IMG/VR virus record: IMGVR_UViG_2718218139_000011
Reading direction: 5' to 3' (one strand)
DNA length: 45,230 nt
From: a virus
Taxonomy: Duplodnaviria > Heunggongvirae > Uroviricota > Caudoviricetes
The notes beneath the pieces were generated by a model, which did no database searches, was not told the DNA's origin, and saw only the letters and a program-made list of their open reading frames with translations. Below, piece by piece: positions 41,970 through 42,512 of the stretch. A program made the position numbers and the translations under genes. Each line of letters begins with the position of its first letter. The stretch's first letter is position 1.

Positions 41970-42011
41970 TGAAATAGTTAACGCGAATTGTACTTGCTCT
42001 TTCAGTTGTTT

Positions 42012-42179
42012 TCAGGATACGCGCTGAAACTGCTGGCGGTAATTTGGTATTCCATTTATTAAAATCATGCCGGAAAAGTACTCTTCGAAAATACTTTTAA
42101 CTGCAGACTCGCCTATTGAAATACTGCTTACCATGCGATTTTGATAAAGGCATTTAGCAATAAGAGTTGATTTTAACAT
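42012..42179 (-). CDS. Possible 55-aa small ORF antisense to the early-left operon
   Basis: ATG preceded by AGGAGG at 4-nt spacing; translation MLKSTLIAKCLYQNRMVSSISIGESAVKSIFEEYFSGMILINGIPNYRQQFQRVS; below ORF-track length cutoff. Confidence 0.3.
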   Translation of the reverse strand: MLKSTLIAKCLYQNRMVSSISIGESAVKSIFEEYFSGMILINGIPNYRQQFQRVS

Positions 42180-42512
42180 TCACCCTCCTGAGGGTTGGTA
42201 ATTAAGGAGTTCTCCACGGGTGAGGTGGAGTGCGTGCGCCGGACACGGGTGAACATCCGGCACTGACAGTTTACTGAAAGGATATTTCTCTGAAAAGTCA
42301 GAGCATAACGCGAAAGCGCACGGCGAGGTTGCTGGTTCATAGATAGCCTGTCGTTAAATTTTCGTCGACCGTGCGCTTCCGGTTGTGGCACTCCGCGAAA
42401 TGGCGCGGCGGTAAGTATGGCGGGGTTATTCCTTCCCCGTTGAGGACACCGGGTTGTCAGGTTGACCATACGCTTAAGTGACAACCCCGCTGCAACGCCC
42501 TCTGTTATCAAT

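What the first reader, a model, noticed from the sequence alone, without database searches (positions are those of the whole stretch)
41970..42512. About 540 bp with no plus-strand ORF upstream of dicF, plus an antisense 55-aa ORF with a strong SD
Between the 135-aa gene and dicF the sense strand has no credible ORF despite being mid-operon. It contains hairpins such as ACCCTC-ctg-AGGGT and GC-rich segments, and an AGGAGG-ATG small ORF on the opposite strand. It could be a processed leader, an unannotated small RNA, or an antisense small protein.
Basis: seen in the sequence. Interest (0 to 1): 0.45.

Follow-up and report, generated by a model that had tools for sequence, protein, structure and literature searches.

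The report
DicF leader RNA plus broken gene
The ORF-free stretch is two ordinary things side by side: the already known long untranslated leader from which the DicF small RNA is cut, and a frameshifted copy of a small opposite-strand prophage gene. The leader does, however, contain a conserved folded RNA domain that is in no RNA catalogue.

Summary

**Right part, 42193-42513.** This is the untranslated ydfC-dicF spacer of the dicBF operon. It is about 97-98% identical to E. coli K-12 Qin, where it is also non-coding, and it occurs in about 4,400 of 5,426 complete E. coli genomes. DicF (42514-42565), dicB and ydfD follow intact.

**Left part, 41970-42192.** This belongs to a 633-bp segment that K-12 lacks. 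It holds a 135-aa gene and a convergent minus-strand gene.
- In relatives the minus-strand gene encodes a 77-aa protein (phrog_10348) conserved across Enterobacterales.
- Here a 1-nt deletion (CCC to CC at 42070-42071) breaks it. The "55-aa ORF with strong SD" is 37 native residues plus 18 out of frame.
- NCBI's annotation pipeline (PGAP) already calls this a frameshifted pseudogene in a 99.9%-identical strain.

**New finding inside the known leader, about 42382-42496.** This is a roughly 115-nt four-helix, pseudoknotted RNA domain.
- Its base pairs covary, and it has no Rfam match.
- It occurs once per prophage, always 10-32 nt upstream of DicF or another hairpin followed by a U-run.
- It is also found just after the C1-controlled Pban promoter of phages P1 and P7.
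- Its function is inferred, not shown. Most likely it controls termination versus read-through at that terminator; guiding RNase E cleavage is the main alternative.

The parts
41560..42192 (.). 633-bp segment absent from K-12 Qin and phage Tritos, between the ydfC 3' flank and the dicF leader. It carries a convergent two-gene module.
   Evidence: Three-way alignment. In the phage search, matches to records lacking the module start at query position 294, which corresponds to window 42193. The full-length arrangement is present in 648 of 5,426 E. coli genomes.
41562..41969 (+). 135-aa gene of unknown function and modular build. Its C-terminal ~78 residues are the conserved sense-strand partner of the 77-aa gene.
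   Evidence: phrog_1363, E=1e-46. The C-terminal part is 36-43% identical to the 77-79-aa partner genes of Serratia, Klebsiella and Dickeya prophages. The N-terminal ~55 aa is joined to other C-termini elsewhere.
41947..42179 (-). Pseudogene of a 77-aa prophage protein family (phrog_10348). It would overlap the 3' end of the 135-aa gene by 23 nt.
   Evidence: The intact 77-aa ORF in phage Evi is identical here apart from 4 substitutions and one missing base. phrog_10348 E=2.7e-46. PGAP annotates it as a 'frameshifted hypothetical protein' in strain PEC240. The 23-nt convergent overlap is conserved in Serratia, Klebsiella and Dickeya.
42012..42179 (-).
   Evidence: The same 55-aa product is present in the protein collection as P0033.
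42070..42071 (.). Frameshift site: CC here, CCC in intact copies.
   Evidence: Alignment A1.
42184..42189 (-). Shine-Dalgarno AGGAGG of the minus-strand gene. It lies inside the small inverted repeat 42182-42195.
   Evidence: Read from the sequence.
42193..42513 (+). Untranslated ydfC-dicF spacer of the dicBF early-left operon, i.e. the DicF precursor leader.
   Evidence: About 97-98% identical to K-12 Qin 1649042-1649381, which carries no annotated gene. Found in 4,428 of 5,426 E. coli genomes, with no feature annotated under the match in nearly all listed records. Described as a long untranslated region in PMC5069750.
42382..42496 (+). Conserved structured RNA domain. Helices: P1 42382-42389/42489-42496; P2 42393-42397/42404-42408; P3 42409-42412/42448-42451; P4 42421-42425/42435-42439 (pyrimidine-rich loop); P5 42452-42459/42479-42486 (19-nt loop, 16 positions invariant); pseudoknot 42415-42420/42466-42471.
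   Evidence: Covariance model R1 hits 42371-42509 at 168 bits, with one copy per locus. 96.2% of cells are paired, and 10 pairs (37 cells) carry changes on both sides, versus at most 5 pairs (17 cells) when partners are slid. G.U cells outnumber A.C cells 122 to 40, which points to + strand RNA. The minimum-free-energy fold gives the same four-helix junction. No Rfam family matches at E<=10.
42497..42513 (+). Unstructured AU-rich linker ending at the DicF 5' end. It is the presumed RNase E cleavage site.
   Evidence: The position follows from the K-12 dicF annotation. RNase E dependence of the 5' end comes from the literature (PMC9438474, PMC5069750) and was not tested here.
42514..42565 (+). 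DicF sRNA with its intrinsic terminator. It lies outside the finding and anchors the interpretation.
   Evidence: RF00039, 76.7 bits, E=2.6e-15. Identical to K-12 DicF.
42740..43116 (+). dicB (42740-42928) and ydfD (42925-43116), the genes that lie beyond the DicF terminator.
   Evidence: Pfam DicB E=1.7e-37 and DUF1482 E=3.7e-25.

Best explanation
The stretch is a composite of two features.

**(A) 42193-42513: shown.** This is the long untranslated leader of the repressor-controlled early-left (dicBF) operon of a Qin-like lambdoid prophage. It is read on the + strand. From the literature on the near-identical K-12 sequence, RNase E cuts at 42513/42514 to make the DicF 5' end. The DicF hairpin either terminates transcription (53-nt DicF) or is read through into dicB-ydfD.

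**Domain inside the leader: shown to exist, function inferred.** A conserved pseudoknotted four-helix RNA domain (about 42382-42496) sits 17 nt before DicF. Inferred at roughly 0.4: it acts in cis on the transcribing complex at the adjacent intrinsic terminator. It would set the balance between stopping, which yields the short DicF-type RNA, and reading through into the early genes. This would be functionally analogous to nut or put sites, without being homologous to them.

**(B) 41970-42192: shown.** This is most of a minus-strand protein-coding gene from a conserved convergent two-gene module of unknown function. In this strain a 1-nt deletion has inactivated it, so the 55-aa ORF is a pseudogene remnant and not a small protein.

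The confidence given (0.8) refers to the composite identity (A plus B), not to the inferred mechanism of the RNA domain.
For: **Identity of the leader**
- Alignment to K-12 Qin and phage Tritos, K-12 annotation and prevalence across E. coli.
- DicF, dicB and ydfD are intact.
- DicF biogenesis is taken from PMC9438474 and PMC5069750.

**Non-coding status**
- Only short ORFs are present.
- Natural copies carry indels whose lengths are not multiples of three.

**RNA domain**
- Helices P1, P3, P4, P5 and the pseudoknot each have pairs changed on both sides; P2 has none. P4 has at least four independent stem variants: CGGGG/CCCCG, CUGGGG/CUCCAG, CAGGUG/CACCUG and CAGGGG/CUCCUG.
- The G.U bias is specific to the + strand.
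- There is exactly one copy in each of 77 loci.

**Link to a terminator**
- Every one of 53 distinct downstream sequences shows, by eye, a hairpin plus U-run 10-32 nt after the domain. My automated terminator finder in that call did not detect most of them.
- In P1/P7 the hairpin is a plain terminator with no DicF-like seed.
- In phage cdtI the domain and terminator lie in a ~590-nt untranslated pL leader ahead of the first gene.
- In P1 the domain starts about 18 nt after the predicted Pban start site.
- 16 of the 19 positions of the P5 loop are identical in all 65 distinct copies, while the downstream sRNA part is much more variable. That pattern fits recognition by a conserved host machine.

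**Pseudogene**
-.
- Conserved synteny next to the cI-type repressor, with a fixed 23-nt overlap, in four genera.
- The AlphaFold2 model of the intact protein is confident, with pLDDT 96.7.
Against: **For the mechanism**
- No experiment was done, and no transcriptome data were available.
- The domain's folding energy is not unusual for its composition (z=-0.98), so the case for structure rests on covariation among fairly close relatives. Several double changes come from the single split between the lambdoid and P1/P7 lineages.
- The alignment used was fitted to the model.
- The outer helix P1 is missing in P1/P7 and in three lambdoid variants.
- In Qin-type prophages the domain lies about 1 kb from the promoter, behind three ORFs. 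That is less nut- or put-like.
- No second copy exists on the pR side.
- No conserved terminator/antiterminator alternative pairing was found (my reading of the output).

**For the pseudogene call**
- A truncated 55-aa product could still be made. However, no sigma-70-like promoter was found upstream on the minus strand.
Confidence: 0.8

Rival explanations
1. The RNA domain is a maturation handle for DicF-family sRNAs. A stable folded block would leave only the short AU-rich linker single-stranded, so RNase E cuts at a defined place and the sRNA gets a precise 5' end. It could also protect the upstream mRNA 3' end.
For: - The DicF 5' end is made by RNase E from this precursor (PMC9438474, PMC5069750).
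- The domain is always coupled to a downstream hairpin preceded by UUU or an AU-rich linker.
- There is one copy per phage, always next to the sRNA and never at pR.
- The same review's reference list cites a paper on stem-loops directing precise processing of the 3'-UTR-derived sRNA MicL. I did not read that paper.
Against: - RNase E guidance should need only stable hairpins, not a pseudoknot with a near-invariant 19-nt loop.
- In P1/P7 and cdtI-type phages the downstream RNA is little more than a terminator, with no free seed, so an sRNA product is doubtful there.
- The sRNA part is far less conserved than the domain.
Confidence: 0.3
2. The domain is a ligand- or protein-sensing attenuator (riboswitch-like). 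Binding would decide whether the adjacent terminator forms.
For: - The architecture is a compact pseudoknotted domain with invariant unpaired bases directly followed by an intrinsic terminator.
- In the DicF-type copy, the P1 3' strand plus GCC can pair with the terminator 5' strand instead (alternative fold of -14.9 kcal/mol).
Against: - That alternative pairing is not conserved in cdtI-type or P1/P7 copies.
- Helix P1 itself is absent in several members.
- No Rfam riboswitch class matches.
Confidence: 0.1
3. The domain is a member of the HK022 put RNA family, which gives protein-independent processive antitermination by binding the RNA polymerase beta' zinc-binding domain.
For: - Its position after an early promoter and before the first terminator is analogous.
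- It shares the 9-mer GCGCGGCGG and a UCAGGNUGA motif with putL and putR.
- Put properties are taken from PMC9378689.
Against: - Neither nhmmer, blastn nor the covariance model links it to HK022.
- The shared 9-mer has E=4.
- The architecture differs: a four-helix junction plus pseudoknot of ~115 nt, versus two stems of ~70 nt.
- There is a single copy instead of a putL/putR pair.
Confidence: 0.05
4. The conservation has no function of its own. The leader simply hitch-hikes with dicF/dicB in recently spread prophage modules.
For: - Most E. coli copies are 95-99% identical, as are the flanking genes.
- The folding energy is unremarkable.
Against: - The domain persists as a separate block in mosaics that have lost the rest of the leader and carry different sRNAs.
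- It survives at 77-82% identity in P1/P7 with compensatory changes.
Confidence: 0.1
5. The 55-aa ORF is itself a functional antisense small protein or a type I toxin.
For: It has a strong SD and an ATG. The same 55-aa product is recorded in 11 member sequences (P0033).
Against: - It is the N-terminal half of a 77-aa protein plus 18 frameshifted residues.
- Intact copies predominate: 155 member sequences versus 11, and 10 of the 12 copies found in the loci held at that point.
- By reading the sequence, the protein is charged and all-alpha with no hydrophobic helix (model).
- Its partner is a protein-coding gene, not an antisense RNA.
- No minus-strand promoter was found.
Confidence: 0.04

Closest known systems
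[quoted passage not shown]
   Same: The sequence is about 97-98% identical over 42193-42513. The position relative to dicF, dicB and ydfD is the same, and DicF itself is identical.
   Different: Here the leader is preceded by a 633-bp two-gene segment (a 135-aa gene and the 77-aa pseudogene), not directly by ydfC. ydfA and ydfB are absent, and the upstream genes differ.
HK022 putL/putR antiterminator RNAs
   Same: Both are cis-acting folded RNAs in a phage early operon, downstream of a repressor-controlled promoter and upstream of terminators. There is a short local sequence resemblance.
   Different: There is no significant sequence or covariance-model similarity. The fold and size differ, there is one copy instead of two, and no activity is known.
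Lambda-type nutL site (boxA + boxB + N protein)
   Same: The location in the pL leader is the same. A boxA-like GUGCUCUC or GUGCGCUU motif lies just 5' of the domain in most lambdoid copies.
   Different: The boxA-like motif is missing in P1/P7 and three variants. The first genes downstream of the domain in two phages (cdtI, pPE4) match Kil or families of unknown function, not N; I did not otherwise search for an N homologue. The domain is far larger than a boxB hairpin.
P1 'dicF-like region' in the ban operon leader (feature in record NC_005856)
   Same: The P1 and P7 copies are true members of the same RNA domain family: 89-96 bits with model R1, with compensatory changes in P3, P4, P5 and the pseudoknot.
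   Different: The P1 annotation marks only a sequence similarity covering P5 to the terminator. P1 lacks helix P1 and a DicF-like seed, and the context is a plasmid-prophage operon with tRNA genes and ban.
sRNAs made by early termination or from 3' UTRs (StxS from PR', CpxQ, SroC)
   Same: The short RNA comes from the same transcript as the downstream or upstream genes, with a terminator as its 3' end (PMC9438474; PMC7547250, abstract only).
   Different: I did not find a comparable conserved upstream structured domain mentioned for those sRNAs in the text I read. I did not check them directly.
phrog_10348 (77-aa phage protein family of unknown function)
   Same: The intact homologue matches end to end at E=2.7e-46. 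The window copy is identical over the first 37 residues.
   Different: The window copy is frameshifted. The family has no Pfam, NCBIfam or PADLOC model and no solved structural relative.

Membership tests
dicBF operon untranslated leader (K-12 ydfC-dicF spacer) | Sequence homology to the K-12 spacer | tested here: met
   42193-42513 aligns without large gaps at about 97-98% identity.
dicBF operon untranslated leader (K-12 ydfC-dicF spacer) | Directly followed by DicF, dicB and ydfD on the same strand | tested here: met
   RF00039 at 42514-42565. Pfam DicB and DUF1482.
dicBF operon untranslated leader (K-12 ydfC-dicF spacer) | Non-coding | tested here: met
   Only ORFs of 36 aa or fewer on the + strand. 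Frame-breaking indels occur among natural copies. No gene is annotated there in K-12.
dicBF operon untranslated leader (K-12 ydfC-dicF spacer) | RNase E-dependent cleavage producing the DicF 5' end | not testable with these tools
   Known for K-12 from the literature (PMC9438474, PMC5069750). The cleavage-site sequence is identical here.
HK022 put RNA | Sequence and structure similarity to putL/putR (two stems, ~70 nt) | tested here: not met
   nhmmer and blastn found nothing significant. Model R1 has no hit in the HK022 immunity region. The architecture differs.
HK022 put RNA | One copy downstream of each early promoter (pL and pR) | tested here: not met
   A single copy in the 45-kb window and in each of 77 loci.
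HK022 put RNA | Terminator read-through dependent on the RNAP beta' zinc-binding domain | not testable with these tools
   Needs transcription assays.
Lambda-type nut site | boxA followed by a boxB hairpin, with an N-type protein encoded in the phage | tested here: inconclusive
   A boxA-like motif is present in most but not all copies. The first genes downstream of the domain in two phages (cdtI, pPE4) match Kil or families of unknown function, not N. I ran no systematic search for an N homologue.
Transcription-attenuating riboswitch | Conserved structured domain immediately upstream of an intrinsic terminator | tested here: met
   All 53 downstream sequence classes show, by eye, a hairpin plus U-run within 10-32 nt.
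Transcription-attenuating riboswitch | Conserved mutually exclusive pairing between the domain and the terminator | tested here: not met
   An alternative pairing was seen only in the DicF-type copy. It is not seen in cdtI-type or P1/P7 copies.
Any Rfam family | Match to a curated covariance model | tested here: not met
   At E<=10, the only hit inside 41970-42512 is a chance-level snoRNA match at E=9.4. Rfam also gave no hit on the HK022 put region, so put RNAs appear not to be represented there.
phrog_10348 77-aa protein family | Full-length match to the family profile | tested here: not met
   The intact homologue matches positions 1-77 of 77. The window copy keeps only residues 1-37 in frame, so it is a pseudogene of the family.
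Type I toxin-antitoxin | Small hydrophobic toxin overlapped by an antisense RNA | tested here: not met
   The protein is predicted to be all-alpha and, by reading the sequence, is charged with no hydrophobic helix. The overlapping partner is a conserved protein-coding gene. No PADLOC hit.

The most novel reading that the evidence does not exclude
The ~115-nt pseudoknotted domain is a previously unrecognised class of cis-acting phage RNA. It would reprogram the transcription complex, either without a protein as put does or through host Nus-type factors. Its role would be to decide, at the first terminator of the early-left operon, between making a DicF-type small RNA and expressing the cell-division and recombination genes. 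The device would be shared by thousands of E. coli prophages and by phages P1 and P7.
Probability: 0.3. Interest if true: 0.75.

Novelty: new member of a known kind. Interest (0 to 1): 0.4.

Why it matters
As stated, the finding is mostly explained by known biology: the DicF precursor leader plus an already annotated pseudogene.

What could matter is the structured domain. DicF is one of the oldest known bacterial small RNAs, and it affects cell division, metabolism and EHEC virulence. Yet how transcription gets past its strong terminator to express dicB and the other early genes has not been explained in the papers I read.

A conserved RNA device placed exactly there, and reused by P1 in front of its ban operon, would give a testable handle on that question. 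It would also bear on how prophage early operons that apparently lack an N protein escape termination.

The 77-aa gene and its convergent partner form a widespread module of unknown function next to the repressor gene. It may deserve a look in strains where it is intact.

Tried and rejected
- **Rfam.** Searches at gathering level and at E<=10 found nothing in the region except DicF next to it.
- **put homology.** Element versus the HK022 immunity region by blastn-short, nhmmer and the covariance model gave nothing significant. Rfam on HK022 showed no put family to compare with.
- **Second copy near pR.** None found.
- **Relatives outside the known host range.** A dicF pattern scan of one genome per species found only Escherichia, Shigella and MAG contigs.
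- **Pseudoknot variants.** Three extra pattern scans of viral contigs, aimed at pseudoknot variants and more distant relatives, gave chance hits plus one ordinary copy.
- **P4 loop pairing with its 3' flank.** Considered from the sequences and dropped, because it is not conserved.
- **Promoter for the minus-strand gene.** No sigma-70-like site was found. The extended -10 seen in Serratia and Klebsiella is not present here.
- **Direction of the 633-bp difference.** I looked for evidence that K-12 is a deletion derivative, using similarity between the Serratia 5' flank and 42239-42262. The similarity is only marginal (z about 2.5), so the direction is left open.
- **Literature.** Faubladier & Bouché 1994, the P1 genome paper and Murashko & Lin-Chao 2017 are not held in the library. 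Full-text search for the loop sequence found no paper.

Full report
**Observation**

The stretch 41970-42512 lies between the stop codon of a 135-aa gene (41562-41969) and DicF. Rfam places DicF at 42514-42565 (RF00039, 76.7 bits).

- The + strand holds only ORFs of 25, 36 and 29 aa.
- The minus strand holds a 55-aa ORF (42012-42179). Its ATG is preceded by AGGAGG, seen as plus-strand CCTCCT at 42184-42189.
- The small inverted repeat ACCCTC-ctg-AGGGT is at 42182-42195.

So the description is accurate.

**Two features, not one**

I aligned the region with E. coli K-12 Qin and with phage Tritos. Window 41560-42192 (633 bp) has no counterpart in either, whereas 42193 onward aligns at about 97-98% through dicF and dicB.

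The database searches show the same boundary. In the phage collection, records lacking the 633-bp segment match only from query position 294, which is window 42193.
- The leader block alone is found in 4,428 of 5,426 complete E. coli genomes.
- The full arrangement, including the left part, is found in 648.

**The left part: a broken minus-strand gene**

Phage Evi (98.9% identical over the 721-bp query) annotates an intact 77-aa minus-strand gene where the window has the 55-aa ORF. The window lacks one base of a CCC run (42070-42071). The product therefore keeps 37 native residues and then runs 18 residues out of frame. In strain PEC240 (99.9% identical) PGAP already labels this a frameshifted hypothetical protein.

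The intact protein is a genuine gene product:
- It matches phrog_10348 end to end (E=2.7e-46).
- It has 77-aa homologues at 53-71% identity in Klebsiella, Raoultella, Serratia, Yersinia, Dickeya, Xenorhabdus, Morganella and Salmonella.

In Serratia, Klebsiella and Dickeya prophages it always sits just downstream of the cI-type repressor. It points against the early-left operon and overlaps the 3' end of a 77-79-aa sense-strand gene by exactly 23 nt. That partner is homologous to the C-terminal ~78 residues of the window's 135-aa protein.

So this is a conserved convergent two-gene module, and its function is unknown:
- Pfam, NCBIfam and PADLOC give no hit.
- The AlphaFold2 model is confident (pLDDT 96.7, all-alpha) but has no solved relative.

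Intact copies predominate: 155 member sequences versus 11, and 10 of the 12 copies found in the loci held at that point. No sigma-70-like promoter is seen upstream on the minus strand.

**The right part: the known DicF precursor leader**

In K-12 the 340 nt between ydfC and dicF carry no gene. [quoted passage not shown]
- The DicF 5' end is made by RNase E.
- The 3' end is made by Rho-independent termination (53 nt) or by RNase III cleavage of read-through transcripts (72 nt) (PMC5069750, PMC9438474).

The window's DicF is identical to K-12's. dicB (42740-42928) and ydfD (42925-43116) follow. Frame-breaking indels among natural copies confirm that neither strand of the leader codes for protein, including the 112-aa minus-strand ORF.

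**A conserved RNA domain inside the leader**

Sensitive searches showed that about 100-120 nt just upstream of DicF behave as a separate module.
- They occur at ~89% identity in lambdoid phages that lack the rest of the leader, such as cdtI, Ayreon and Stx2c phages.
- They occur at 77-82% identity in P1, P7 and about 500 mostly non-mobilizable plasmids of Escherichia, Salmonella, Klebsiella and Shigella, whose match resembles the P1/P7 one.
- In P1 the module begins about 18 nt after the predicted start of the C1-controlled Pban promoter. The record marks part of it only as a 'dicF-like region'.

From 127 extracted copies (70 distinct) I derived a structure:
- an outer helix P1;
- hairpin P2;
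- helix P3 enclosing hairpin P4;
- hairpin P5, whose 19-nt loop GGUUGACCAUACGCYURAG is identical at 16 positions in all copies;
- a pseudoknot between GUAUGG and the CCAUAC of that loop.

*Evidence for the structure*
- On a MAFFT alignment, 94.4% of cells pair and 8 pairs show changes on both sides.
- On the model-fitted alignment of 65 distinct sequences, 96.2% of cells pair and 10 pairs (37 cells) show double changes. With partners slid, 31-53% pair and at most 5 pairs (17 cells) show double changes. No shuffle reached the observed values.
- P4 alone has at least four different stems.
- The P1 copy changes GUAUGG/CCAUAC to GCAUGG/CCAUGC, which preserves the pseudoknot.
- G.U cells outnumber A.C cells 122 to 40, as expected for RNA read from the + strand.
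- The minimum-free-energy fold of 42381-42502 reproduces the junction.

*Weaknesses*
- The folding energy is not unusual (z=-0.98).
- The sequences are closely related.
- Several double changes trace to the single split between the lambdoid and P1/P7 lineages.
- Helix P1 is absent in some members.

No Rfam family matches, and a full-text search for the loop sequence found no paper.

**What the domain may do**

It occurs once per locus (77 hits in 77 loci). By eye, all 53 distinct downstream sequence classes have a hairpin plus U-run 10-32 nt after the domain. My automated terminator finder in that call did not detect most of them.
- The hairpin may be DicF, a DicF-like hairpin with a different loop and 5' tail, or in P1/P7 a plain terminator.
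- In phage cdtI the order is cI, terminator, pL, about 270 nt, domain, terminator, about 140 nt, first gene.

The domain is much more conserved than the small RNA that follows it. Its unpaired bases are nearly invariant, which points to recognition by a conserved host machine rather than to a mere stable hairpin.

I therefore favour, at about 0.4, a cis-acting role at the adjacent terminator: stop and make the short RNA, or read through into dicB, kil and the recombination genes. The main rival, at about 0.3, is a handle that positions RNase E for the sRNA 5' end. A riboswitch-like attenuator is less likely, because no alternative pairing is conserved.

Membership of the HK022 put family is not supported (put properties from PMC9378689). 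Only a 9-mer and a short loop motif are shared.

**Verdict**

The finding as written is explained by known or already annotated features. It is not a new small protein or a new sRNA gene. The one thing worth following up is the uncatalogued structured domain of the DicF leader.

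Noticed in passing
window 42563-42772 (+): The dicF-dicB spacer gives a sub-threshold STnc100 (RF02076) match (33.9 bits, E=1.8e-5). It contains a ~20-bp long-range duplex (42574-42593 with 42704-42723) just before the dicB ribosome-binding site. This is probably the RNase III site that yields the 72-nt DicF. P1 has a similar weak hit upstream of tciA (L019 3342-3461).
   Followed up: partly
window 29851-30023 (-) and 30796-31042 (-): A full STnc100 sRNA copy (104.7 bits) lies next to three tRNA genes elsewhere in the same prophage region.
   Followed up: no
window 43557-44713 (+), with 43210-43428: An IS3-family insertion sequence (HTH_Tnp_1 plus rve ORFs) sits where relatives carry the large exonuclease gene after ydfD. 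Only a 72-aa ORF is left at that position, and I did not compare its sequence with the exonuclease.
   Followed up: partly
window 41028-41234 (-): A second opposite-strand gene inside the early-left operon: an ECs_2282-family zinc-ribbon protein (NCBIfam NF047912, 57 bits). It overlaps a longer, probably spurious, + strand ORF (40893-41249).
   Followed up: partly
window 41562-41969 (+): The 135-aa protein is modular. A conserved N-terminal ~55 residues (MEFKDLP...SGLYGSDNQ) is joined to unrelated C-terminal parts in other prophages. Some relatives are 201 aa long and run on where the 77-aa antisense gene lies here.
   Followed up: partly
loci L020, L024, L047, L053, L068, L076, L112 (downstream of the RNA domain): The hairpins that follow the domain form a family of DicF-like RNAs. 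They share a GGCGG...CCGCC stem, but their loops and 5' tails differ widely, which suggests diversifying target-pairing regions.
   Followed up: partly
window 42239-42260 and L005/L007 about 3930-3960: A hairpin in the 5' part of the leader (CCGGA...UCCGG) resembles one upstream of the 77-aa gene in Serratia. The similarity is only marginal (z about 2.5). Whether K-12 lost the 633-bp module or this lineage gained it remains open.
   Followed up: partly
locus L031 (IMG/VR contig): A natural variant has lost the leader segment between two CGCGAAA repeats (equivalent to about 42317-42397). That removes helix P1 and the preceding long hairpin, while P2-P5 and an intact 77-aa gene are kept.
   Followed up: no
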